IMG/VR virus record: IMGVR_UViG_2923344815_000003 | Coordinates: 1-36,404 of that record | Length of the DNA stretch: 36,404 bases | Source: a virus | Taxonomy: Duplodnaviria > Heunggongvirae > Uroviricota > Caudoviricetes | Strand: one strand, 5' to 3' | In this document: piece after piece, positions 3,365-36,404 of the stretch | Numbering within the stretch: the first letter of the stretch is position 1 | Layout: each line of letters begins with the position of its first letter | Notes under the pieces: generated by a model | What the model was told of the DNA's origin: nothing | Seen by the model: only the letters and a program-made list of their open reading frames with translations | Databases searched by the model: none | Made by a program: the position numbers and the translations under genes

Positions 3365-4549
3365 ATGAGTGAAACTCGTTTTCATGGTGCCCGTGTTACG
3401 GAAAATACCGACCTGGTAACAGCGATTAACGATGTTGATTCCAGCGTTATCGGTATCGTGGCAACGGCGGATGATGCGGACGCGAAGCTGTTCCCGCTGA
3501 ACAAGCCCACACTGCTGACCCGCGTCAATGACGTGCTGGGAAAATGCGGGACAACGGGGACGCTTTATCGTGCGCTTAAGGCCATCGCAGACCAGGTGAG
3601 CACAAAGGTGATCGTCGTTCGCGTGGCTGAACACAAAGAAGAAGACGGAAAAACGCAGGATCAACTGGTTATCGGTGGTTCTGAATCTGACGGCAGCTAT
3701 ACGGGGATGTATGCGCTGCTTGTTGCAGAGCAGGATGAAAGCATCGGATACCGTCCGCGTATTCTGGCCGCGCCGGAGCTGGACACGGAGGCGGTAACAA
3801 AATCCCTGTGCGTGATTGCGGGTAAACTGCGCGCGTTTGTGTATGCCTCATGTCACGGCTGTAACACGATGGCTGAGGCGATTACCTACCGCCAGAAATT
3901 CAACGAACGTGAGGTGATGCTCTTATGGCCGGACTTCATCGCCTACAACCCGAAAAGTGGCAAAAACGAAACGTTCCCCGCGCCTGCTTATGCGTGCGGC
4001 CTTCGTGCGTACATTGACCATGAGCAGGGCTGGCACAAATCACTGTCCAACGTTCCGGTTAAAAATGTGCTGGGGATGTCCCGGCATGTGTTCTGGTCGT
4101 TGCAGGCCGAAGACAGCGATGCCAACAGCCTCAATAACAAAGAAATCACGACCATTATTCGTCGCAACGGGTTCCGCTTCTGGGGCAACCGCACACCGGA
4201 AACGAACGCCTACATCTTTGAGGTGTATACCCGAACCGCACAGGTGCTGGCTGATTCAATTGCGGAAGCGCAGTTTGAAACCATCGACAGTCCACTGACG
4301 CCTGCGAACGTGAAAGATGTTATCAGTGCCATCAGGGCAAAACTGGATTCGCTGGTGACTGCCGGGAAACTGATTGGGGCGTCGTGCTGGTATGACGTGG
4401 TGGATAACGGCACCACGGATTTACGTCAGGGACGTGTGCGTATTCGCTACAAATATACGCCCGTTCCGCCACTGGAAGACATGGAGCTTTACCAGACGTT
4501 TACTGATGAATACTTTGAACCCGCATTTGCGGTGCTGGGAGGTGCCTGA
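3365..4549 (+). CDS. FI: contractile tail sheath protein (gpFI)
   Basis: 394 aa, size and sequence character of P2 FI sheath; followed directly by tube gene. Confidence 0.9.
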   Translation: MSETRFHGARVTENTDLVTAINDVDSSVIGIVATADDADAKLFPLNKPTLLTRVNDVLGKCGTTGTLYRALKAIADQVSTKVIVVRVAEHKEEDGKTQDQLVIGGSESDGSYTGMYALLVAEQDESIGYRPRILAAPELDTEAVTKSLCVIAGKLRAFVYASCHGCNTMAEAITYRQKFNEREVMLLWPDFIAYNPKSGKNETFPAPAYACGLRAYIDHEQGWHKSLSNVPVKNVLGMSRHVFWSLQAEDSDANSLNNKEITTIIRRNGFRFWGNRTPETNAYIFEVYTRTAQVLADSIAEAQFETIDSPLTPANVKDVISAIRAKLDSLVTAGKLIGASCWYDVVDNGTTDLRQGRVRIRYKYTPVPPLEDMELYQTFTDEYFEPAFAVLGGA

Positions 4550-5061
4550 TGGCTGTGCCAAAACATCTTCGCTTTTTTACGCTGTTTGTGGATGGTGAAA
4601 ACGAAGTGGGTAAGGTGACGTCCGTCACCCTGCCTAAACTGACGCGCAAAACCGACAGCTACCGGGGTGGTGGCATGATGGGGGCGGTAAGTATTGATCT
4701 CGGTCTGGACGACTCCGCGCTTGATGCGAGCTTTGTCATGGGGGGCGCAGTTCGTGAGCTGTTTCTTAAGTATGGCGGCACGATTGACGGCACGCTGCTG
4801 CGTTTTGCGGGTGAATACTACACCGATGCAGAAAGCGACCTGTATGAAGTCGAAATGCGCGGACGTGTGACGGAAATTGATATGGGGGAAGCCAAACAGG
4901 GCGAAGCCACATCACACACTTACGCCATTAAAAACACCTACTACAAGCTGAGTGTTAACGATCGCCCGTTGTGGGAGATTGACCTGCTGAACTTCATTTA
5001 CCGGAAGGACGGCAAGGACATTGTGCCCGATCGCATCCGTTCCGCGCTTGGGCTTGGCTGA
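4549..5061 (+). CDS. FII: tail tube protein (gpFII)
   Basis: 170 aa; start overlaps FI stop (ATGA-type overlap); P2 FII-like. Confidence 0.9.
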   Translation: MAVPKHLRFFTLFVDGENEVGKVTSVTLPKLTRKTDSYRGGGMMGAVSIDLGLDDSALDASFVMGGAVRELFLKYGGTIDGTLLRFAGEYYTDAESDLYEVEMRGRVTEIDMGEAKQGEATSHTYAIKNTYYKLSVNDRPLWEIDLLNFIYRKDGKDIVPDRIRSALGLG

Positions 5062-8968: not shown

Positions 8969-8993
8969 ACCGCTAATGGCCAGATTAGCGGTT
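8969..8993. terminator. bidirectional terminator between convergent U and invertase genes
   Basis: accgctaat / attagcggt stem, T-tracts on both strands. Confidence 0.5.
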
Positions 8994-9575
8994 ATTTTGT
9001 TTACTCTTCTCAATTGTTCCGCTTGATTCTCCTGCGGGGTGGTAACGATAAATCGTCGATGTACCAATGCCGTAAATTATTGCCAGTTGTTTTCTGTCGT
9101 GCCCGTTTTTAATCAGCCTTGCTATTTGCTCATTCTGTTCTATTGTCAGCTTCGGGCGACGTCCGCCTGTGCGTCCTTGTGCGCGTGCTGCTGCCAGACC
9201 GGCCAGTGTACGCTCTACAATTAATTCACGTTCCATTTCAGCCAGGGCACCCATCACGTGGAAGAAAAAACGCCCCATTGGAGAAGATGTATCTATGCTG
9301 TCGGTCAGACTGCGAAAATTAATCCCTCGCTCCCGTAGTTCCCCGACGAGAGAAATCAGATGTTTCATGCTTCGCCCGAGGCGATCCAGTTTCCAGACAA
9401 CCAGCGTGTCACCTTGTTGAAGGCGCTTTAAAGCGCGTTTTAATCCCGGTCGGTCTGTCTTTGTCCCGCTTAATTTATCTTCAAATATTTGTTCACATCC
9501 TGCACAAACAAGAGCGTTTCGTTGCAGGTCTGTATTCTGGTCATTTGTTGATACCCTTACATAGCCAATCAGCAC
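8985..9575 (-). CDS. Gin/Cin/Pin/Hin-family serine DNA invertase
   Basis: VLIGYVRVSTNDQNTDLQRNAL... catalytic Ser region, C-terminal HTH; near-identical in its N-terminal two-thirds to Mu Gin as I recall it; GTG start at 9575 with GGGAGA RBS (track ORF starts 9593). Confidence 0.9.
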   Translation of the reverse strand: MLIGYVRVSTNDQNTDLQRNALVCAGCEQIFEDKLSGTKTDRPGLKRALKRLQQGDTLVVWKLDRLGRSMKHLISLVGELRERGINFRSLTDSIDTSSPMGRFFFHVMGALAEMERELIVERTLAGLAAARAQGRTGGRRPKLTIEQNEQIARLIKNGHDRKQLAIIYGIGTSTIYRYHPAGESSGTIEKSKQNNR

Positions 9576-9629
9576 ACTGAATCTCCCGTCCAAAAGCGCA
9601 AATCATGCCATGCAGGCCAGAAACGGCCA

Positions 9630-9711: not shown

Positions 9712-10636
9712 CGATAAAAAACTATTCCTGCGTAATATCGGCACAACAAATTCAACAACCATGTCTTTTAGTGGTGGTGCTGGATGGTTCAAACTGGCAA
9801 CTGTAACAATGCCACAAGCCAGTTCCGTGATTTACATAAGCCTGATTGGTGGCGCAGGGTATAACGTTGGCTCCTCGCATCAAGCAGGCATCTCTGAGCT
9901 GGTTCTGCGTGCCGGAAATGGGAATCCAAAAGGTATTACTGGTGCATTATGGCGACGGACATCGGTTGGATTTACTAATTTTGCATGGGTGAATACATCC
10001 GGTAATACCTATGATGTTTATGTTGAAATAGGTAATTACGCCACAGGTGTTAATATTCAGTGGGATTATACCAGTAACGCCAGCGTAACGATTCATACAT
10101 CACCAACTTATACAGCGAATAAACCAACAGGCCTGACAGATGGAACTGTATATGTAATTTACAGTTCGCACATTAAACCGACTGCTGCTGAGGTTGGGGC
10201 GTTGTCATTATCTGGCGGTCAATTGAATGGTGCACTGGGCATCGGAACATCCAGTGCTCTTGGTGGTAACTCGATTGTTTTGGGTGATAATGACACGGGA
10301 TTTAAACAAAATGGCGACGGGTATCTGGATGTTTATGCGAATAACGTCCATGTTATGCGCTTTGTCTCCGGCAGCATTCAAAGTAATAAAACCATAAATA
10401 TTACAGGGCGTGTTAACCCCTCGGATTACGGTAACTTTGATTCCCGTTATGTGAAAGATGTTCGCCTGGGTACGCGTGTTGTTCAATTGATGGCGCGTGG
10501 TGGTCGTTATGAAAAAGCCGGACACGCAATTACCGGATTAAGAATCATTGGTGAAGTAGATGGCGATGATGAAGCCATCTTCAGACCAATACAAAAATAC
10601 ATCAATGGCACATGGTATAACGTCGCACAGGTGTAA
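9644..10636 (+). CDS. alternative tail-fibre C-terminal exon (silent in this orientation)
   Basis: Reading frame open from the crossover site; first 23 codons (LGLQETVNQASGALQKKQNGADIP) identical to the corresponding stretch of H; C-terminus ...INGTWYNVAQV resembles the H C-terminus; track ORF 9761-10636 is the Met-initiated part. Confidence 0.75.
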   Translation, partial: GLQETVNQASGALQKKQNGADIPDKKLFLRNIGTTNSTTMSFSGGAGWFKLATVTMPQASSVIYISLIGGAGYNVGSSHQAGISELVLRAGNGNPKGITGALWRRTSVGFTNFAWVNTSGNTYDVYVEIGNYATGVNIQWDYTSNASVTIHTSPTYTANKPTGLTDGTVYVIYSSHIKPTAAEVGALSLSGGQLNGALGIGTSSALGGNSIVLGDNDTGFKQNGDGYLDVYANNVHVMRFVSGSIQSNKTINITGRVNPSDYGNFDSRYVKDVRLGTRVVQLMARGGRYEKAGHAITGLRIIGEVDGDDEAIFRPIQKYINGTWYNVAQV

Positions 10637-10639
10637 ATT

Positions 10640-11167
10640 ATGCAGCATTTAAAAAATATTAAGTCAGGAAATCCAAAAACAAAAGAGCAATATCAGCTAA
10701 CAAAGAATTTTGATGTTATCTGGTTATATACAGAAGACGGTAAAAACTGGTATGAGGAAGTAAATAACTTTCAGGACGACACCATAAAGATTGTATACGA
10801 CGAAAATAATATTATTGTCGCCATCACCAAAGATGCCTCCACGCTTAACCCTGAAGGTTTTAGCGTTGTCGAGGTTCCTGATATTACCGCCAACCGACGT
10901 GCTGATGACTCAGGTAAATGGATGTTTAAGGATGGTGCTGTGATTAAGCGGATTTATACGGCTGACGAACAGCAACAACAGGCCGAATCACAAAAGGCCG
11001 CGTTGATTTCTGAAGCTGAAAGCGTTATTCAGCCACTGGAACGCGCTGTCAGGCTGAATATGGCGACGGATGAAGAGCGTAGCCGACTGGAAGCATGGGA
11101 ACGCTACAGTGTTATGGTCAGCCGTGTGGATACGGCAAAGCCCGAATGGCCACAAAAGCCTGAGTAA
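10640..11167 (+). CDS. alternative tail-fibre assembly chaperone (silent partner)
   Basis: 175 aa, N-terminus [22 protein letters not shown] nearly identical to the convergent chaperone at 11196-11729. Confidence 0.8.
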
Positions 11168-26744: not shown

Positions 26745-27704
26745 TTACTCCTTGTTCATTGCGTACAGCCCATTAACCAGAGCAAAATGTGGCACCCCGT
26801 CCGTGATGAAAGTCGCATTAACTCCGCAGGCTTCGCGGATAGCGGGTGCCACAATCTCCGCCCCTCCACCGACAACCATCACCCGCCCGTAACCGGAAAA
26901 ACCCGCCAGCGCGCGGATCACTCGTTGTTTCAGTGTCTCCTCCTTTTCACGAATAACCGCCATCAGGCTGTTGTAATGCGCGTCATTGTGAATGTGCTGG
27001 CGCAGCCAGGCTTCATCGTGACGGTGCTCAATAATGGTATTGGCGATGTGGTGACTGGTACGCATACCGTTAGTGGCCATCACCGACAGCACGGCATCAG
27101 CCATCAGGGAAACGCCTACGTGTGGATCGCAAAACACCTGGCTGATACCTGCCAGCTGCCCCTGAACCTTTGCCACATCCAGCGTGGTTCCGCCCAAATC
27201 CACAATCAGCAGGGATTCAAACGGACTCATGTCAGCCAGTGCCTTAAAGCCAGCCGGAATGGATTCAGGCATAACCCGCACGTTACGGATAGTGAATGCT
27301 TCGCCGTTCTGGTACTCCACCGGGCGCATAACGTTCGCTTTTTTGCGGTTGATGTTGGCTATGTCCGGCTGTGCGTTTGTGTCGAAATACTCGCTCAGTG
27401 GCAGGGTGACAACCACATCCACCTCCTGTGGCGTGATGCCTGATTTGACCAGCGCGTGATGAATGGCAATGACATTCACATCACTGTACTGGTATTGCGT
27501 GTCGGTCGTCTGGACAAAGCGATCGCTGACCGGATCAAAACCATAGCGCACGCCATCAAGCATGTAGTTCGCGGGCTGCGTGTCACCGAACGGCGCAGAC
27601 CATTCCGACTTGAAGCTGTTCGGGCTGATGGCGTTGCGGCGTTCGCCGTTCTCAGTCCATGCCAGCTTGATGTTGGTGGAGCCGTCGTCGATACAAATTT
27701 TCAT
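26745..27704 (-). CDS. parM: ParM/StbA-family actin-like segregation ATPase
   Basis: 319 aa; MKICIDDGSTNIKLAW, ISPNSFK, YSDVNV, DLGGTTLDV, VVGGGA actin-fold motifs; close to plasmid R1 ParM along the whole length from memory. Confidence 0.85.
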   Translation of the reverse strand: MKICIDDGSTNIKLAWTENGERRNAISPNSFKSEWSAPFGDTQPANYMLDGVRYGFDPVSDRFVQTTDTQYQYSDVNVIAIHHALVKSGITPQEVDVVVTLPLSEYFDTNAQPDIANINRKKANVMRPVEYQNGEAFTIRNVRVMPESIPAGFKALADMSPFESLLIVDLGGTTLDVAKVQGQLAGISQVFCDPHVGVSLMADAVLSVMATNGMRTSHHIANTIIEHRHDEAWLRQHIHNDAHYNSLMAVIREKEETLKQRVIRALAGFSGYGRVMVVGGGAEIVAPAIREACGVNATFITDGVPHFALVNGLYAMNKE

Positions 27705-27780: not shown

Positions 27781-30588
27781 TCATATATCGCTGCGCGTTT
27801 TTTGCTCATTTACGGGATTCGTGAGTCCCGTTTCTGTCTGTTTTTTGTTTCCACTGGTCAGGCCACCCTGCAGCAGGTCTGCTTTGCGGCTGGCGCGTTC
27901 AGTGGTTTCACTGATTCTCTGTGCGTGCTCTGCGTCGCGGATGGCGCGCAGCATGTCAGAAAGCACGGTAACGGGTGTTTTCATGGTGTTCTGATCCTGC
28001 TGAAGTGCGGATGCCAGGCGTGCGGCGGCTTCGGGGTCTGATGCCCCCAGCTGTGCCAGATAGCTGGCGACCGGGTTATGGCGGATCTCCGTGCTGCTTA
28101 CGCCGTGATTACGGCTCAGGTGCTGCCAGAGCTGCGTGATTCGGCTGTCCGGGCGGGTATCCGGTTTGCGTACAATTTCATATCCCTGCGGTGCAATGAT
28201 GCTGCCGTCAACGTACAGGCTGCCGCCCCGTAGCAGGTGCTGCGTCTGCTGTTCACCGATATGCAGGCCGAGAGATTCGGCAGACTCCCGCCATTCTTTA
28301 GCGAGTAATTCGTGGTTATCAGGCAAAGGCCGCTGCTGTTTGCGGCTCTGTGTCCAGCTCTGCATTTCATCACTGCTGTTTTTTGCCTGTTTGTCACGAA
28401 GCGAACGCATCAGCGCCCGGCGTTCGTGCCGTTTCAGTGAGCGCATCCATTCGTTCACTTCAACGCCGTCAGGAAGCTGCGGCCACGGTGCTGGCCGTTC
28501 TTTCGACTGTTCTGTCCCGCTGTTGCCTGTTTCCTGTACACGGGGACAGTTATTGCCACGAGTCCAAGGGGCGGCAGGGCCGCCCTGAAGGTCAAAACCA
28601 TTTTCGCGGGCGCTGTCTTCCGCTTCCGGTTTGCGTCTTACCAGCTTCCAGTTATCCGGATGCGTGCACACACGGGAGGATTCCCCGATGAGTGGTGACC
28701 AGATCCCGTAAATCTGTACGCTCTGTTCGCCGTAATCGTTCAGCTCATCGGCGAGGTCGTAGGCGGTGCGAATCAGGTAGTCTTTGCGTGGAACAAGTAC
28801 GCCGCCCTGTTTCTCTATGTAGGTGGCAAAACATCCTGCATCAGCGGCAGCGAGTACCGCATCCATTGCGTCATCCTTCAGCCGTTGCGGGCCTTCCGGG
28901 TTGCGTGCCATCTGGCTGGCAAGGCGGCGGAGTTCACGCCACACCTGACGGGAGGGGATGCCAAAGAACTGGAACTGGCGGACCCGGTGAAGGCGCGCCC
29001 AGCCGATGGCGCGTTCCACGCTCTCGGCCATTGATTTTCCGGTTTCGTGGTCAACGCGTGGCTTGCCCGTTTTCTGGTCGATGCCATCCACGGCGCGGCT
29101 GTCCAGGTTCTTTCCGATGTAGGTGGCGATGTAGCTGGTTGGTGTGCCTTTTGAGCCGTCTACGTACTCCGCCTTAAAACGCGGAGTTATGTCATCGCCC
29201 AGCTCGTGGCGGTCTTCCTGAATGGCAATATCGCAGACGTGGGACACGATGGTTTCAATCTCGTCCGGATGTGCAAAGACCATCATATGCCAGTGCACGG
29301 TGCCGTCATGGTGAGGCTCCACCGTGCGGATGCCATACCAGCGCAGGCCGTCGCGGTTCAGTTTCTTGCGGACCGCCGCAAAAAACGTGTTAACCAGGTA
29401 ATCGCTGGAGTCGCGCATGGTGGCCCCGTTCCATTTGGGATTCGGATGACCGTTCTCTGTTGTGGCGTGGTATTTTGACGGGCAGGTGACAGTCAGAAAC
29501 ACCGCTTTGTCGCCACGGGCTTCGGCCAGAAGTTCCAGCCCCTTCATGGTGGCCATCATTTCTGCCTTACGGTGAACCGGGTTACTTACTCCCGCGTAAT
29601 ACACTGTCTCGAGATCAATCGTGAACCCGTCTTCGTTTTCCAGCATGAAACTTTTCAGGAAATCGCGTGTTTTCTCGCGCTGTGCGCGAAACTCGCTTAA
29701 CGCGTCCTGGCTCAGATAGGGTGATGTTTTTCTGGAAACCAGACAGGCGGCGCGGAGTTGTTCTTCTCTCCACTCGCAACGTAACAGCCACAATTTGCGT
29801 TTCCACCATTCCGCACAGGTCAGGCGAAGGATTGCGCCCGGTAACAGTTCCGTATCCGGATCGCTCTTGTTCAGGGCTTCGTAATGTGGCGGCATGATGT
29901 GCAGGCGTAATGCGATACGGGCCAGCATCCGGTAAGCCTTCAACATTACATCCATGGTCAGCTCGCCATCTCTGGCACCAAAGCCATCGCAGAGTGTTTC
30001 GAAGGTGCTGCTGAACATCGCCGCCGTCATGGTGGCCAGCGTCTGTATCTGGTGCTTGTTGAGCTGCGGCAGGTAAAGCAAATCGTCCAGGCGTTCGCGC
30101 CCGGCAAGGGAGCGATAACCCGGTGTCAGCCAGCGCCCGTCAGTGCGATCCAGACGTTCGAATATTTTGCGCAGGGTCCCGCGCGCGTAGCGTTCAGCCT
30201 GCTGGTTCTTTTTACCTTTCTGGCGGTCAGATTCCTGTTTTTTGCGCAGGAAGGAGAGGTGGCGAATAAGCGGATCGCGCAGATAGGATGGCAGCAGGCG
30301 CAGCGAGGCCATGGCTTCATCCACCGCGCCGCGTACCTGCTTTCTGGCGTCTCCTGCCAGTGTGATGGTTTTGTCCTGTTTTTCCTGTGCGTCCAGGCTT
30401 TTATTAATCAGGTTGCCCAGCGGCGTGGCGGAGAACGCCGCATCAGCCATTTCCTGGCAGCGCTCGTTCTCTGCCCGGTAGGCATCCAGCCAGGAGGAAA
30501 GCGCGGATTCAGGAGCGGGGATCCCCGTTCCTTCACGCCCCACTGCGTGGCGCGGTTGCTGCCAGTCCCTGATGTACTCTGCCGTCAT
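27781..30588 (-). CDS. A: replication initiation endonuclease gpA (rolling-circle initiator)
   Basis: 935 aa; HxH (VHWHMMVF) and double-tyrosine YIATYIGK motifs. Confidence 0.9.
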   Translation of the reverse strand: MTAEYIRDWQQPRHAVGREGTGIPAPESALSSWLDAYRAENERCQEMADAAFSATPLGNLINKSLDAQEKQDKTITLAGDARKQVRGAVDEAMASLRLLPSYLRDPLIRHLSFLRKKQESDRQKGKKNQQAERYARGTLRKIFERLDRTDGRWLTPGYRSLAGRERLDDLLYLPQLNKHQIQTLATMTAAMFSSTFETLCDGFGARDGELTMDVMLKAYRMLARIALRLHIMPPHYEALNKSDPDTELLPGAILRLTCAEWWKRKLWLLRCEWREEQLRAACLVSRKTSPYLSQDALSEFRAQREKTRDFLKSFMLENEDGFTIDLETVYYAGVSNPVHRKAEMMATMKGLELLAEARGDKAVFLTVTCPSKYHATTENGHPNPKWNGATMRDSSDYLVNTFFAAVRKKLNRDGLRWYGIRTVEPHHDGTVHWHMMVFAHPDEIETIVSHVCDIAIQEDRHELGDDITPRFKAEYVDGSKGTPTSYIATYIGKNLDSRAVDGIDQKTGKPRVDHETGKSMAESVERAIGWARLHRVRQFQFFGIPSRQVWRELRRLASQMARNPEGPQRLKDDAMDAVLAAADAGCFATYIEKQGGVLVPRKDYLIRTAYDLADELNDYGEQSVQIYGIWSPLIGESSRVCTHPDNWKLVRRKPEAEDSARENGFDLQGGPAAPWTRGNNCPRVQETGNSGTEQSKERPAPWPQLPDGVEVNEWMRSLKRHERRALMRSLRDKQAKNSSDEMQSWTQSRKQQRPLPDNHELLAKEWRESAESLGLHIGEQQTQHLLRGGSLYVDGSIIAPQGYEIVRKPDTRPDSRITQLWQHLSRNHGVSSTEIRHNPVASYLAQLGASDPEAAARLASALQQDQNTMKTPVTVLSDMLRAIRDAEHAQRISETTERASRKADLLQGGLTSGNKKQTETGLTNPVNEQKTRSDI
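27809..27847. repeat. direct repeat copy 2, encoding the last 13 codons of gene A
   Basis: tttacgggattcgtgagtcccgtttctgtctgttttttg; minus strand encodes KKQTETGLTNPVN. Confidence 0.7.
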
Positions 30589-33447: not shown

Positions 33448-33651
33448 TTAGCTGTTAGTCAAAGCGTCTTTTAACATCGCCACAAGGTTTACTTCAGGCT
33501 TTTCCATTTTGGCGCGTTTGGGGCGGATAATAATTCGACCGTCAGCCAACATCTTTTTGCATGTATTAAGAGGGATACCTGTTATCTCTGCATATTTCTG
33601 CAGGGATACATAGGGGGCATTCACATTGATATTGATGGTTATACCTGACAT
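33448..33651 (-). CDS. small HTH DNA-binding protein (Cox/Apl/excisionase-like candidate)
   Basis: 67 aa; YVSLQKYAEITGIPLNTCKKMLADGRI helix-turn-helix-like; second gene of early operon. Confidence 0.5.
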   Translation of the reverse strand: MSGITININVNAPYVSLQKYAEITGIPLNTCKKMLADGRIIIRPKRAKMEKPEVNLVAMLKDALTNS

Positions 33652-33667
33652 CCCACTAGCCTCTTGA

Positions 33668-33874
33668 TCAGGAAGATTTGTTTTGTTCTTTCTGGGTTAG
33701 TTCTAGGCCGCGAAGGAAGATCATGCGCGCCATGTTAGAGGATGAGCGTTGTTCTTTAGCTGCCATTTCATCAATGACGGCTCGCTCCTCGAGGGACAGC
33801 CGAAGTGCCAGTCTTGGACCTGTGGCGGTGTTACGCGGAATGCGTGATCTGGTATCGTGAAGAACTTGTTTCAT
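33668..33874 (-). CDS. ribbon-helix-helix (CopG/Arc-like) protein, first gene of the early lytic operon
   Basis: 68 aa; RLSLEERAVIDEMAAKEQRSSSNMARMIF; divergent from the repressor gene. Confidence 0.6.
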   Translation of the reverse strand: MKQVLHDTRSRIPRNTATGPRLALRLSLEERAVIDEMAAKEQRSSSNMARMIFLRGLELTQKEQNKSS

Positions 33875-33949
33875 AGTGGTATATTGTGATCATCTAATAG
33901 CTCGTGAAATCATTTTGGTATCAAAAAAGATACCTGTCAAGGTTTTTGT
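33875..33949. promoter_or_regulatory. immunity switch region with repeated operator half-sites
   Basis: GGTATC-N6-GATACC inverted repeat at 33917-33934; further GGTAT half-sites at 33878 and 33851. Confidence 0.45.
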
Positions 33950-34354
33950 ATGAAAAATGATATTGGTCAGCGGTTGCGTGAGGAAAGGGAAAGATTGGGA
34001 CTTAGTCAAGTTGCCATGAGCGACATTGGTGGAGTCAAAAAGCTAACTCAGCTTAGATATGAGAAAGGAGATAGCTTTCCTGATGCTGCGTATTTGGCAG
34101 CGCTGTCTCGTTTTGGCCTTGATGTTCAGTATGTTGTGTTGGGAATTCACTCACCTGAAACTTATAACGATGATGAGCAGGAGTTGATTACTCGCTTTCG
34201 AGCAGCTTCGTTAGATGTGAAAAACGCGGTGATTGGGGCTTTAAAAGGTGCGATCAGTGAAAAGGAAACTCAGCCATCAGGACGTGAGTTAAATATTTCT
34301 GGTGGTAATAACCGTATCGCTGGTCGTGACTATAACGAAACTAAGGGCAGGTGA
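33950..34354 (+). CDS. XRE-family HTH immunity repressor
   Basis: 134 aa; N-terminal HTH (QRLREERERLGLSQVAMSDIGGVKKLTQLRYEKGDSFPDAAYLAALSRFG); divergent from early operon. Confidence 0.8.
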   Translation: MKNDIGQRLREERERLGLSQVAMSDIGGVKKLTQLRYEKGDSFPDAAYLAALSRFGLDVQYVVLGIHSPETYNDDEQELITRFRAASLDVKNAVIGALKGAISEKETQPSGRELNISGGNNRIAGRDYNETKGR

Positions 34355-34369
34355 TAGTAGGGAGGTGAC

Positions 34370-35020
34370 ATGGCCGTCAACTCAAACGGTTCAAACAATC
34401 GCGTTGCTGGGCGTGATTTTCACGAAAAGAATATTCAGATAGAGCGATATGATGGTTCTCATACCGTCAATATCGCAATCCCTTCGAATAATGATGATGA
34501 CGATCGCCCTTTGCTTAAGGCTCAGCGTAAGGAGCTAAATAGCTTGGTTGCTGCTATTGCAGAAGCTAGCAATACTGAAGCGTTTATTATTTGGCAAAAA
34601 GTACATGCGGAGATTGGTGTAGCTGGTATTGATGATATGACAGTAAATCAATATAAAACAGCGGAGAGTTTTCTGCATGCAATGCTTGAGCGATGTAAAG
34701 ATCATGATGCCTGTAAGGCTCTTGTAAGTTTATTACTACGTAACAGTGAAGACTGTGGACTTCGACAAAAACTTCTGCGGTATTGCCATATCAATTTCGG
34801 TACAGGACGTTTAAACGATCTTACTCGTTCTCAGTTACAGTCTGCATTGTCGTGGTTAGAGCAACAATCGGCATCAAGCCACACAGAGAGTTCGACCTTA
34901 CCAGAAGTCCGACTTCGTGCTTCAGAATTAATCCGACTTTATCCAAAAGAAATAATATTCTTTATCTGCGTAGGGGGTTTGGTAGGCGGTGTCATTTCTA
35001 GAGCGTTTTTTAATTTGTAA
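34370..35020 (+). CDS. hypothetical C-terminally membrane-anchored protein (cargo gene)
   Basis: 216 aa; GGAGGTGA RBS; C-terminal TM helix IIFFICVGGLVGGVISRAFF; N-terminal motif NNRVAGRDFHE echoes the repressor C-terminus NNRIAGRDYNE; AT-rich by eye. Confidence 0.65.
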   Translation: MAVNSNGSNNRVAGRDFHEKNIQIERYDGSHTVNIAIPSNNDDDDRPLLKAQRKELNSLVAAIAEASNTEAFIIWQKVHAEIGVAGIDDMTVNQYKTAESFLHAMLERCKDHDACKALVSLLLRNSEDCGLRQKLLRYCHINFGTGRLNDLTRSQLQSALSWLEQQSASSHTESSTLPEVRLRASELIRLYPKEIIFFICVGGLVGGVISRAFFNL

Positions 35021-35049
35021 TCTTACTTGAGCTAAATTGAGGTAATGAT

Positions 35050-35397
35050 ATGAAAGTTAAAAAGGTTCAACTATTAGTTACTTTTTTATCTATGTTTTCT
35101 TTTTCCGCCGTCGCAATGCCTTTTAAAACCATTGAACGTGAGAGTTTCAATGGGGTGTGGCCATTTAATACTGATGAGGTTCAATTACAGTGTCTTGATG
35201 GTAATCCTTATGTAATGAATTTTGACGATAATAAGTTATATGCACTTACAGGTTTGGCTCGAATAAAAGGTAAAACATTTGGTGCGTTACCGTTAGATAA
35301 CAATAATCCATTTTGGCTAGATAATGATGCCGCCCCAGGGTTAAAAAAGAGTCTGGGGGATGTCACTAAGGCTGCATTTGATTTATGTGATAAGTAA
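35050..35397 (+). CDS. hypothetical secreted protein, possibly DUF2511/YebY-like (cargo gene)
   Basis: 115 aa; signal peptide MKVKKVQLLVTFLSMFSFSAVA; two Cys; AT-rich. Confidence 0.6.
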   Translation: MKVKKVQLLVTFLSMFSFSAVAMPFKTIERESFNGVWPFNTDEVQLQCLDGNPYVMNFDDNKLYALTGLARIKGKTFGALPLDNNNPFWLDNDAAPGLKKSLGDVTKAAFDLCDK

Positions 35398-35402
35398 CTA
35401 AA

Positions 35403-36404
35403 ATGTCGGTTCGTAAGATTCCATCAGGTAAATGGCTTTGCGAATGTTATCCCTACGGGGCATCGGGAAAACGCATTCGTAAACAGTTTGCGACAAAAAG
35501 TGAGGCGCTCTCTTATGAGCGCCGTTTAATGAATAGTAGAGTTGGAGACGAGTTTCAAGATGGTTCTGGTCCTCGTCTTTCTGAGTTGATTGCTCGTTGG
35601 TTTGAGATGTACGGTAAAACCTTGTCCTCTGGTGCAGAGCGCAAAGTCAAACTTGAGGCGATTTGTTCCAGGCTGGGAGATCCATTTGCTTCGCAGTTTG
35701 ACAAAAATATGTTTGCTACTTATCGGGAAAGAAGGCTATCAGGAGAATGGAATCCCAAGGGGAAGAAAAAACTTAGTGAAGCAACCGTTAATCGCGAGCA
35801 GTCATATCTACATGCTGTTTTTGCCGAACTGAAGCGCCTTGGGGAGTGGTCTGGTGAAAACCCCCTGACTGGTATTCGCAAGTTTCGTGAGGAAGAAAAG
35901 GAACTGGCGTTTCTGTATGTAGATGAGATTGAACGCCTTCTGATTGCGTGTGATGAGTCACGGAATAAAGATTTGGGGGTTGTTGTCCGTATTGGGCTTG
36001 CGACTGGTGCTCGGTGGAGTGAAGCAGAAGGATTAAAGCAATCTCAAGTACTGCCCGGTCGAATCACATTTGTTAAAACTAAAGGAAAGAAGAACCGCAC
36101 TGTACCGATTTCACCTCAATTGCAGGCTATGCTTCCTAAAAAACGAGGAGCGCTATTTTCACCATGTTATGAGGCTTTTGACGCTGCAATTAAGAGAGCG
36201 AAGATCGAGCTTCCTGATGGGCAATTAACTCATGTGCTACGTCACACGTTTGCCAGTCATTTTATGATGCGGGGCGGAAATATTCTTGTGTTGCAAAAAA
36301 TACTGGGGCATAGCGATATAAAAATGACTATGCGTTATGCGCATTTTGCTCCAGGTCATTTAGAGGCTGCTGTTGAATTGAACCCTTTTGACAATAGAGG
36401 GTAA
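35403..36404 (+). CDS. int: tyrosine-type phage integrase
   Basis: 333 aa; C-terminal catalytic region HVLRHTFASH...MRYAHF (R-H-R-Y box); stop codon is the last triplet of the window. Confidence 0.9.
   Translation: MSVRKIPSGKWLCECYPYGASGKRIRKQFATKSEALSYERRLMNSRVGDEFQDGSGPRLSELIARWFEMYGKTLSSGAERKVKLEAICSRLGDPFASQFDKNMFATYRERRLSGEWNPKGKKKLSEATVNREQSYLHAVFAELKRLGEWSGENPLTGIRKFREEEKELAFLYVDEIERLLIACDESRNKDLGVVVRIGLATGARWSEAEGLKQSQVLPGRITFVKTKGKKNRTVPISPQLQAMLPKKRGALFSPCYEAFDAAIKRAKIELPDGQLTHVLRHTFASHFMMRGGNILVLQKILGHSDIKMTMRYAHFAPGHLEAAVELNPFDNRG

What the first reader, a model, noticed from the sequence alone, without database searches (positions are those of the whole stretch)
33950..35397. 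Two AT-rich cargo genes between repressor and integrase; the first shares a motif with the repressor tail
P2 has int directly next to C. Here about 1 kb of visibly lower-GC DNA is inserted, co-oriented with the repressor and so likely expressed in the lysogen. It encodes a 216-aa protein with a C-terminal TM anchor and a 115-aa signal-peptide protein, possibly DUF2511/YebY-like. The repressor C-terminus (ISGGNNRIAGRDYNE) and the 216-aa N-terminus (SNGSNNRVAGRDFHE) share about 10 of 15 residues. The two genes are in the same frame, separated by three stop codons and an RBS, so they are not a read-through fusion. The shared motif suggests a common origin or a shared interaction epitope. Candidate superinfection-exclusion, defence or lysogenic-conversion module; I recognise no described system.
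Basis: partly seen in the sequence, partly recalled or inferred. Interest (0 to 1): 0.65.

Follow-up and report, generated by a model that had tools for sequence, protein, structure and literature searches.

The report
Prophage repressor paired with motif-matched membrane protein
In this P2-like E. coli prophage the immunity repressor ends with the same short peptide motif that starts the membrane protein encoded next to it, and this matched pair recurs, with co-varying motif variants, in many P2-like and Mu-like prophages, which points to an undescribed way of coupling a phage repressor to the cell membrane; the second gene is an ordinary variable cargo gene.

Summary
The window holds repressor (33950-34354), ORF216 (34370-35020), ORF115 (35050-35397) and integrase, apparently one operon. 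The junction is TGA TAG TAG plus GGGAGG. The shared motif has 9 of 15 identical residues (score 62 against 20±4 in shuffles).

The two "cargo" genes are different things. ORF115 is a secreted DUF2511/YebY-family protein (W37, C48, C113). It sits in a truly variable slot, 322-914 bp with at least 10 gene families across related prophages.

ORF216 is not cargo. It is a C-tail-anchored Flk_N-domain membrane protein that accompanies the repressor. In 81 non-identical loci from P2-like and Mu-like prophages, an HTH repressor tail and the next gene's N-terminus carry the same 16-22-residue Gly/Asn-rich motif. Motif variants co-vary (permutation z=9.3), and three blind predictions were confirmed. The partner's body can be swapped for other membrane proteins while the motif stays. 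A tail-less repressor has no motif-bearing partner.

Best reading: the two disordered termini bind each other, so the partner is a membrane-anchored modulator of the repressor. This is inferred, not shown. PADLOC, the PDB and the searchable literature gave no described counterpart. The closest formal analogue is the amyloid-signalling motif pair (BASS, Bab/Agp).

The parts
33912..33940 (-). Promoter-like site (TTGACA-17-CAAAAT) facing the leftward Arc-like/Cox-like early operon; marks the divergent switch region
   Evidence: Consensus scan, 10 of 12 matches. Arc-like and Cox-like annotations in the 98% identical phage 520873 record.
33950..34354 (+). Immunity-type repressor, 134 aa: HTH-XRE domain plus helices (residues 1-106) and a disordered tail (residues 103-134)
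   Evidence: Weak Pfam HTH_31/HTH_3 hits and phrog_8. AF2 with 30 homologues gives helices up to residue 106 and pLDDT below 50 for the tail. Position is divergent from the cox-like operon and upstream of int.
34295..34339 (+). Repressor C-terminal tail motif ISGGNNRIAGRDYNE (residues 116-130), followed by TKGR and the stop
34352..34369 (+). Junction: TGA TAG TAG, GGGAGG Shine-Dalgarno, 15 nt between stop and ATG
   Evidence: Gaps of 3-15 nt are typical of the pair in 81 loci.
34370..35020 (+). ORF216: partner of the repressor, a C-tail-anchored Flk_N-family membrane protein
   Evidence: NCBIfam Flk PRK10715 E=8.6e-16. Precomputed Pfam PF27202 Flk_N. phrog_5825. BLASTP to E. coli Flk gives 28% identity over 124 aa. 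AF2 model.
34382..34426 (+). ORF216 N-terminal head motif SNGSNNRVAGRDFHE (residues 5-19), in a disordered N-terminus (residues 1-45)
   Evidence: S5 G7 N10 R11 G14 R15 D16 E19 are invariant in 16 homologues of 58-77% identity. pLDDT is below 50.
34505..34882 (+). Flk_N-type helical cytoplasmic domain (about residues 46-171)
   Evidence: AF2 pLDDT about 80 with five helices. Aligns to Flk residues 26-146. Weak fold and profile similarity to ORF6C, GemA and the Red-beta C-terminal domain.
34943..35011 (+). C-terminal transmembrane anchor (about residues 192-214)
   Evidence: AF2 helix 192-214. Conserved Gly-rich hydrophobic C-terminus across the family. [quoted passage not shown]
35050..35397 (+). 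ORF115: secreted DUF2511/YebY-family protein; occupies the variable moron slot
   Evidence: Pfam DUF2511 at 28.4 bits against cut-off 21. phrog_2950. YebY 7n0j E=0.003. W37, C48 and C113 as in YebY (and the sequence). Signal-peptide-like N-terminus ending AVA. Lowest GC, 0.356. Slot variability.
35403..36404 (+). Tyrosine integrase, last gene of the rightward lysogenic operon
   Evidence: Pfam Int_N and Phage_integrase. No plus-strand terminator-like site between 33950 and 36404.

Best explanation
The region is the lysogenic operon of a P2-like (Xuanwuvirus-type) E. coli prophage, in the order repressor, ORF216, ORF115, integrase.

ORF216 is the repressor's conserved partner. It is an inner-membrane protein held by a C-terminal anchor, with a cytoplasmic Flk_N helical domain. 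Its disordered N-terminus carries the same Gly/Asn-rich motif of about 16-20 residues as the repressor's disordered C-terminus.

The most likely mechanism is that the two matching termini bind one another by strand-to-strand, homotypic pairing. Tight translational coupling of the two genes would favour this, because the tail of one protein and the head of the next emerge from the same mRNA. The membrane partner would then capture or modulate the repressor at the membrane. In that reading it acts as a membrane-anchored, pair-specific anti-repressor, sensor or buffer of immunity.

What is shown: the motif pair, its conservation, its covariation, the partner's architecture, and that the partner's body is exchangeable. 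What is inferred: physical binding, and its consequence for repression or induction.

ORF115 is unrelated to this pair. It is a secreted periplasmic DUF2511/YebY-family protein, one of many alternative morons in the slot just upstream of int.
For: 1. Universality. In the window and in 13 genomes of different Enterobacterales genera the motif occurs exactly twice per locus, at the repressor's C-end and at the next gene's N-end. The same holds in IMG/VR loci found by a DNA pattern for the motif alone.
2. Upstream gene. All 81 non-identical pairs have an upstream protein that matches the repressor HTH profile.
3. Covariation. Non-AGRD variants match within pairs in L019, L220-L223 and KS10 gp13/gp12. 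Permuting the partner assignment gives z=9.3, with 0 of 20000 permutations reaching the true sum.
4. Prediction test. Three repressor homologues were chosen only for their odd tails (P0318, P0320, P0350). Each has a downstream gene that starts with the matching variant.
5. Tail follows partner. The repressor's N-terminal 100 residues stay conserved while the tail type switches together with the partner. One host genus carries several tail types: Pectobacterium has two and Gilliamella three.
6. Exchangeable body. 64 of 81 partners are Flk_N plus TM. The other 17 are zinc-ribbon or other proteins with 1-2 TM segments.
7. Negative control. The JBD25/TAB03 repressor lacks the tail, and the next gene is a lipoprotein without the motif.
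8. Disorder. Both motifs lie in termini predicted to be disordered.
9. Coupling. Gene gaps are mostly 3-15 nt, and no terminator lies within the operon.
10. Selection. Synonymous differences within the motif codons point to selection at the protein level.
Against: No interaction was computed or measured.

Within the dominant AGRD motif type there is no pair-specific signal, because true partners rank randomly. The specificity therefore lies at the level of motif types, and the covariation counts lineages, not independent events.

Co-transcription of a repressor with its own antagonist is unusual for antirepressors. The partner could equally stabilise or localise the repressor.

The Flk_N domain's target is unknown. 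KS10 gp12 and one truncated member lack a clear membrane anchor.
Confidence: 0.55

Rival explanations
1. Both motifs are independent recognition sites for a third factor, such as a host protease, adaptor or chaperone, or another phage protein. The two proteins would then be co-regulated (degraded or protected together) without touching each other. ORF216's head might serve as a decoy for the repressor's degron.
For: Both motifs sit at exposed, disordered extreme termini, as degrons do. Repressor tails end in a short basic run. The dominant AGRD type shows no pair-specific matching, which would fit one common reader.
Against: The same host genus carries several motif types, each matched to its own partner: Pectobacterium has two and Gilliamella three. 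A single host factor would not explain that. The same sequence works at a C-terminus and at an N-terminus, which is atypical for terminus-specific degrons. That last point rests on general knowledge.
Confidence: 0.18
2. ORF216 and ORF115 are both accessory cargo, a superinfection-exclusion, defence or lysogenic-conversion module inserted between C and int. The motif would reflect common origin only.
For: Both genes are expressed from the lysogenic operon and are AT-rich. One is a membrane protein and the other is secreted, as many exclusion proteins are. The slot after ORF216 is a true hotspot, and neighbouring cargo includes BRCT- and TIR-domain proteins.
Against: ORF216-type genes are fixed next to the repressor in phages as different as P2-like and Mu-like ones, while the neighbouring slot varies. 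PADLOC found nothing. Motif covariation and protein-level selection exclude a passive remnant.
Confidence: 0.1
3. ORF216 is a phage-borne Flk paralogue. It acts like chromosomal Flk on the flagellar type III export gate and alters motility or FlgM secretion in lysogens.
For: Homology to Flk residues 26-146 and the same tail-anchored architecture. Flk restrains the flagellar secretion-specificity switch, and the authors tested it against the FlhA cytoplasmic domain (PMC13344023).
Against: The score is 58 bits against the 353-bit equivalog cut-off. Flk proper is 320-400 aa, has repeated domains and lacks the N-terminal motif. The phage family is very common in Klebsiella pneumoniae, where P0097 is seen on 754 contigs. 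That species is non-flagellate (general knowledge). The partner body is replaceable by unrelated membrane proteins.
Confidence: 0.07
4. The resemblance between tail and head is chance, or a neutral by-product of a duplication at a recombination joint.
For: The motif is short and compositionally biased.
Against: Score 62 against shuffles of 20±4, with 0 of 20000 reaching it. Invariant residues across genera. Found in 81 non-identical loci with co-varying variants. Synonymous divergence between the two copies.
Confidence: 0.01

Closest known systems
Amyloid signalling motif pairs (fungal HET-s/NWD2; bacterial BASS1-10; E. coli Bab/Agp BASS11)
   Same: Adjacent genes carry one short shared motif, at the C-terminus of one product and the N-terminus of the next. 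The motif is about 20 residues, rich in N, G and V and poor in K, P and L. Within-pair identity is about 45-60%. The domains attached to the motif are exchangeable (10.1101/2020.01.06.895854; 10.1101/2024.11.07.622273; my).
   Different: Here the C-terminal bearer is a DNA-binding phage repressor, not a pore-forming Bell/HeLo effector. The N-terminal bearer is a small membrane protein, not an NLR/STAND or TPR receptor. The motif is highly charged (R, D, E) and Q is not enriched in the main type. No fibril or prion behaviour has been tested.
Flk (RflH/Fluke), flagellar type III secretion-switch brake of Salmonella and E. coli
   Same: Homologous Flk_N helical domain and a C-terminal membrane anchor facing the cytoplasm (PMC13344023).
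   Different: ORF216 is 216 aa against about 331-333 aa, and has a single copy of the domain where Flk has repeats. It carries the N-terminal motif that Flk lacks. It is prophage-encoded next to a repressor, whereas flk lies between pdxB and yfcJ.
Phage repressor/antirepressor pairs (P22 Ant, 186 Tum, Gifsy antirepressors, RS1 RstC, VP882 Qtip)
   Same: A small phage protein is proposed to act on the immunity repressor by direct binding. There is weak similarity of the Flk_N-type domain to the ORF6C/Ant middle regions. RstC and Qtip are reported to aggregate or sequester repressors (my own knowledge, not checked here).
   Different: Known antirepressors are soluble and transcribed from separate, repressed promoters, and they share no motif with their target. 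Here the partner is membrane-anchored, co-transcribed with the repressor and carries a copy of the repressor's own tail.
Membrane sequestration of transcription regulators (anti-sigma factors, Mlc-PtsG, PutA)
   Same: The proposed logic is the same: a membrane protein holds a DNA-binding regulator away from DNA (general knowledge).
   Different: No homology. Recognition here would be through a duplicated terminal peptide, not a folded interface.
YebY (DUF2511) of the E. coli yobA-yebZ-yebY operon; MlbQ
   Same: ORF115 has the same length class, a signal peptide, and W37, C48 and C113, which form the disulfide in YebY. It matches Pfam DUF2511 above the gathering score.
   Different: It is not in a copper-related AZY operon. 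It is prophage-borne in a moron slot. Sequence similarity to YebY is low (E=0.003). Its function is unknown.

Membership tests
Flk / Flk_N (NCBIfam PRK10715; Pfam PF27202) | Flk_N helical domain | tested here: met
   NCBIfam E=8.6e-16 over residues 37-166. Precomputed PF27202 on nearly all homologues, with the name Flk_N shown. BLASTP to E. coli Flk E=2e-10.
Flk / Flk_N (NCBIfam PRK10715; Pfam PF27202) | Equivalog-level score, full-length architecture (about 330 aa, repeated domain, long linker) | tested here: not met
   58 bits against a cut-off of 353. 216 aa with a single domain; Flk matches the query twice to three times internally.
Flk / Flk_N (NCBIfam PRK10715; Pfam PF27202) | C-terminal membrane anchor, cytoplasmic orientation | tested here: inconclusive
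   A hydrophobic C-terminal helix at 192-214 is predicted. Orientation is inferred from Flk and was not measured.
Flk / Flk_N (NCBIfam PRK10715; Pfam PF27202) | Acts on the flagellar type III secretion switch | not testable with these tools
   Needs genetics. Its abundance in Klebsiella argues against it.
DUF2511 / YebY | Pfam PF10709 above the gathering score | tested here: met
   28.4 bits against 21, covering profile positions 2-87 of 87.
DUF2511 / YebY | Two strictly conserved Cys (C48-C113 disulfide), conserved Trp37, export signal | tested here: met
   ORF115 has W37, C48 and C113 and an N-terminal hydrophobic leader ending AVA (sequence). The YebY features come from PMC8689200. The alignment to 7n0j pairs the Cys residues.
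DUF2511 / YebY | yobA-yebZ-yebY operon context | tested here: not met
   Its neighbours are ORF216 and int. The paper notes that other contexts exist.
Amyloid signalling motif pair (BASS-like) | Same motif at the C-terminus of one protein and the N-terminus of the product of the adjacent gene | tested here: met
Amyloid signalling motif pair (BASS-like) | Motif of about 20-25 aa, enriched in N, G, Q, V, I and depleted in K, P, L | tested here: inconclusive
   N is 3.6-fold and G 2.2-fold enriched and V is mildly up. L, P and K are strongly down. But Q and I are not enriched, and R and D are enriched. Length is 16-22 aa.
Amyloid signalling motif pair (BASS-like) | Receptor is an NLR/STAND-type protein and the effector is a Bell/HeLo-type or other death domain | tested here: not met
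   The upstream protein is an HTH repressor in 81 of 81 pairs. The downstream protein is Flk_N plus TM or a small TM protein.
Amyloid signalling motif pair (BASS-like) | Motif forms amyloid fibrils or prion-like foci and templates its partner | not testable with these tools
   Needs peptides, ThT and EM, and GFP-foci assays.
Phage antirepressor | Binds and inactivates the cognate repressor | not testable with these tools
   Inferred only from motif covariation.
Phage antirepressor | Homology to known antirepressor families (Ant, KilAC, ORF6C and others) | tested here: inconclusive
   phrog_245 E=0.004 and phrog_2127 E=0.024. ORF6C in 3 of 17 relatives, best E=0.01. BFVD top hit is an ORF6C-domain protein, E=0.004. 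All are below curated thresholds.
Known anti-phage defence systems (PADLOC) | Match to any PADLOC model | tested here: not met
   No hits for ORF216 or ORF115 at E<=1. The repressor gives only generic HTH hits.

The most novel reading that the evidence does not exclude
The matched termini are a prion-like, amyloid-type signalling pair. A stimulus at the membrane would cluster the partner protein. Its N-terminal motifs would nucleate a cross-beta fold that templates the identical tail of the repressor and pulls repressor dimers into an inactive assembly. This would give an all-or-none, SOS-independent and immunity-type-specific trigger for prophage induction. It would be the first case of amyloid templating controlling a lysis-lysogeny switch.
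Probability: 0.15. Interest if true: 0.92.

Novelty: new variant of a known kind. Interest (0 to 1): 0.72.

Why it matters
P2-like prophages are classed as non-inducible or as induced by poorly understood routes. Many Mu-like prophages also lack a known physiological trigger. A conserved membrane-anchored protein that carries a copy of the repressor's own tail would give a concrete, testable route by which membrane-level events feed into the switch, or by which immunity is buffered. The pair-specific motif types would also keep co-resident prophages insulated from one another.

The module is common. It occurs in 520 of 5426 complete E. coli genomes and in Klebsiella, Serratia, Erwinia, Pectobacterium, Gilliamella and Burkholderia phage KS10.

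The result also gives the Flk_N domain a phage context and suggests a phage link for the flagellar regulator Flk. Finally, it extends the rule 'same motif on adjacent gene ends' beyond NLR-type immune systems.

Separately, the slot between the partner gene and int is an unlisted moron hotspot in P2-like phages.

Tried and rejected
Searches that found nothing or little:
- PADLOC: no hits for ORF216 or ORF115.
- PDB by sequence: nothing for ORF216 or the repressor.
- Foldseek against the PDB: nothing with E<=0.001.
- tblastn of ORF216 against deposited phage genomes: only phage 520873, where the gene is unannotated and split into three pieces, plus weak Ralstonia hits.
- Literature searches for the motif string, membrane-anchored antirepressors, tail-anchored prophage proteins and Flk with prophage: nothing relevant. 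The BASS and ASM papers do not mention HTH repressors.

Tools that could not be used:
- The afdb50 fold library was unavailable.
I would in any case have distrusted it, because the short natural linker forces a hairpin.
- The search for related loci with the divergent alignment A2 failed for lack of a conserved stretch.
- The first DNA pattern was too degenerate.

Ideas rejected:
- Read-through or frameshift fusion: the frames differ between loci.
- Recent DNA duplication or gene conversion: the motif codons differ synonymously.
- Pair-specific fine-tuning within the AGRD motif type: ranks of true partners are random.
Full report
**What is in the window**

Coordinates 33950-36404 hold four co-oriented ORFs:
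- a 134-aa HTH-XRE protein at 33950-34354;
- a 216-aa ORF at 34370-35020;
- a 115-aa ORF at 35050-35397;
- a tyrosine integrase at 35403-36404.

The window is 98% identical over this region to Escherichia phage 520873 (Peduoviridae, Xuanwuvirus). In that record the HTH gene lies divergent from an Arc-like and a Cox-like gene. The 1.5-kb module occurs in 520 of 5426 complete E. coli genomes, mostly at 99% identity or more. No plus-strand terminator-like site separates the four genes, so they most likely form the lysogenic operon.

**Checking the observation**

The junction reads TGA TAG TAG GGAGGTGAC ATG, and both genes are in the same frame.

Repressor residues 116-130 and ORF216 residues 5-19 share 9 of 15 identical residues. 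The tail-against-head local score is 62, against 20.3±4.2 in 20000 shuffles, none of which reached it. Only 4 of the 9 identical residues use the same codon.

GC content is 0.442 for the repressor, 0.413 for ORF216, 0.356 for ORF115 and 0.450 for int, against 0.525 for the whole window. Only ORF115 stands out from its neighbours.

**ORF115**

ORF115 matches Pfam DUF2511 above the gathering score, phrog_2950 and the YebY crystal-structure chain 7n0j. It has W37, C48 and C113, which are the conserved Trp and the disulfide pair described for periplasmic YebY (PMC8689200). It also has a signal-peptide-like leader.

In 74 related P2-like loci the stretch between the ORF216-type gene and int is 322-914 bp long. 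It holds at least 10 unrelated gene families:
- DUF2511, in 42 loci, many of them near-identical E. coli copies;
- a BRCT-domain protein;
- a 298-aa protein;
- an acidic 108-aa protein;
- membrane proteins and others.

ORF115 is therefore ordinary, exchangeable cargo in a hotspot.

**ORF216**

ORF216 hits the NCBIfam Flk model at E=8.6e-16, far below the equivalog cut-off. Its homologues carry the precomputed Pfam family PF27202, named Flk_N. BLASTP against E. coli Flk gives 28% identity over 124 residues, and Flk contains the domain more than once.

AF2 with 16 homologues predicts a disordered N-terminus (1-45), a helical domain (46-171, pLDDT about 80), a linker and a C-terminal helix at 192-214. 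[quoted passage not shown]

Fold and profile searches gave only weak links to small helical protein-binding modules: ORF6C, Ant middle regions, GemA and the Red-beta C-terminal domain.

In 16 homologues of 58-77% identity the N-terminal motif residues S5 G7 N10 R11 G14 R15 D16 E19 are invariant. An exhaustive HMM search of 1.84 billion representatives found only 135 relatives. The short tail-anchored ones nearly all begin with this motif or a variant of it. The 320-400-aa Flk proteins do not.

**The pair is the real feature**

In 13 genomes from different Enterobacterales genera the upstream repressor ends in ...SG.GNR.AGRD[FY]NE.KK. The next gene begins M.VNS.G..NR.AGRDF.E.

Distant Flk_N relatives sit in Mu-like transposable prophages, again directly after an HTH repressor. 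There the motif differs, but it still matches within each pair:
- L019: QQFNGPVGTVTTGDVVN against QQQFHGAVEQVAAGDIKN;
- L221: QVFHGKVGQSIAGNV against QVFREDVGQAVAGDL;
- L222: QIFNGDISGQFAGNQIIN against QEFNGTAQGQFSSRDIIN;
- L223.

I then chose three repressor homologues purely for their unusual tails (P0318, P0320, P0350) and fetched their loci. Each downstream gene started with the corresponding variant. The published Burkholderia phage KS10 shows the same thing for gp13/gp12: ASGSGITQVGSRVRI against ASGFGIIQVAGDLSI. The JBD25/TAB03 repressor has no tail motif and is followed by a lipoprotein without the motif.

A DNA pattern for the motif alone, run against IMG/VR, returned 54 distinct C-terminal and 52 N-terminal contexts. 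Apparent singletons turned out to have tails that my regular expression had missed. In a few loci an extra gene is inserted between the two partners.

Across 81 non-identical pairs:
- all upstream proteins match the repressor profile;
- 64 partners are of the Flk_N type;
- 17 partners are other proteins with 1-2 TM segments, often with a zinc ribbon;
- gaps between the two genes are mostly 3-15 nt.

Permuting the partner assignment among 49 non-redundant pairs gives z=9.3, and 0 of 20000 permutations reached the true sum. The signal comes from motif types. Within the AGRD type, true partners are not distinguishable from others.

The repressor's first 100 residues stay conserved while the tail type switches with the partner. 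Pectobacterium has two tail types and Gilliamella three. AF2 places the repressor tail (103-134) in a disordered region.

The motif is 3.6-fold enriched in N and 2.2-fold in G. It is strongly depleted in L, P and K.

**Interpretation**

The shown facts are best explained by direct, type-specific pairing of the two termini. These facts are matching, co-varying terminal peptides in neighbouring, translationally coupled genes, a partner that is almost always a membrane protein, and a partner body that is exchangeable. The partner would then be a membrane-anchored modulator of the immunity repressor. Whether it antagonises, buffers or localises the repressor cannot be decided here.

The main rival is a shared third-party reader such as a protease or chaperone. 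It is weakened by the presence of several motif types within one host genus. An Flk-like flagellar role is unlikely given the family's abundance in Klebsiella, the missing motif in Flk and the replaceable partner body.

The formal architecture is that of amyloid signalling pairs. But the attached domains differ, and nothing about fibrils is known. I keep this as the most novel reading not excluded.

**Novelty**

I found no description of this pairing in the defence-model library, in solved structures or in the searchable literature. The only deposited phage genome with the gene leaves it unannotated.

I rate it a new variant of known kinds: repressor-modulator pairs and matched-motif signalling pairs. 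The mechanism is inferred, not demonstrated.

Noticed in passing
window 26745-27704 (-): A 319-aa ParM/StbA-type actin-like segregation ATPase (StbA_N E=1e-82, ParM C-terminal domain E=3e-67) lies just downstream of the replication gene A region of this integrated P2-like prophage. This is roughly where P2 carries its old/tin accessory locus.
   Followed up: partly
window 8985-9593 (-) with 9761-11167 (+): A serine recombinase/invertase (Resolvase plus HTH_7) sits directly beside a 291-aa ORF and a tail-fibre assembly protein (Caudo_TAP). It looks like a Gin/Cin-type invertible tail-fibre (host-range) switch. Inverted repeats were not checked.
   Followed up: no
window 27781-30588 (-): The replication initiator (Phage_GPA domain at residues 179-498) is 935 aa, with long extensions on both sides of the GPA domain.
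   Followed up: no
window 33448-33874 (-): The early leftward operon starts with two small regulators, not one: a weak RHH/Arc-like 68-aa ORF and a 67-aa Cox-like ORF, as annotated in phage 520873. DUF4761 and DUF4754 genes follow.
   Followed up: partly
L001 (NC_049344.1, phage 520873) about 3755-4795: In the only deposited phage genome with this module the ORF216 homologue is unannotated and matches in three pieces. The integrase is also split into two CDSs. This suggests indel errors or decay in that record.
   Followed up: partly
L019 4990-5862; also L222, L220: In Mu-like prophages the repressor-partner pair is followed by a small lipoprotein and then variable cargo, including a TIR_2-domain protein in L019. 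The holin/SLT lysis genes come after that. The pair there flanks another cargo slot.
   Followed up: no
L148 8846-9498; L157 4902-5411; L149 12736-13174: In a few loci an extra gene of 114-135 aa, some with signal peptides, is inserted between the tail-bearing repressor and its motif-bearing partner. Strict adjacency is therefore not required.
   Followed up: partly
L015 1951-2946 (E. coli K-12 flk): Chromosomal Flk aligns to the single ORF216 domain two to three times. Flk therefore looks like an internally repeated, motif-less derivative of the phage-type Flk_N protein, or the reverse.
   Followed up: partly
L228 (Burkholderia phage KS10) 2501-3559: KS10 gp13 (annotated as phage repressor) and gp12 (hypothetical) form a matched tail/head pair of a further motif type. 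gp12 has an Flk_N-like body but no obvious membrane anchor. KS10 is a cultured phage in which the pair could be tested.
   Followed up: partly
L080, L005 and relatives: slot between partner gene and int: One alternative cargo in the slot occupied here by ORF115 is a protein of about 295 aa with an N-terminal BRCT domain. Another is a 298-aa protein with a weak TerB-like hit. Neither was examined further.
   Followed up: no
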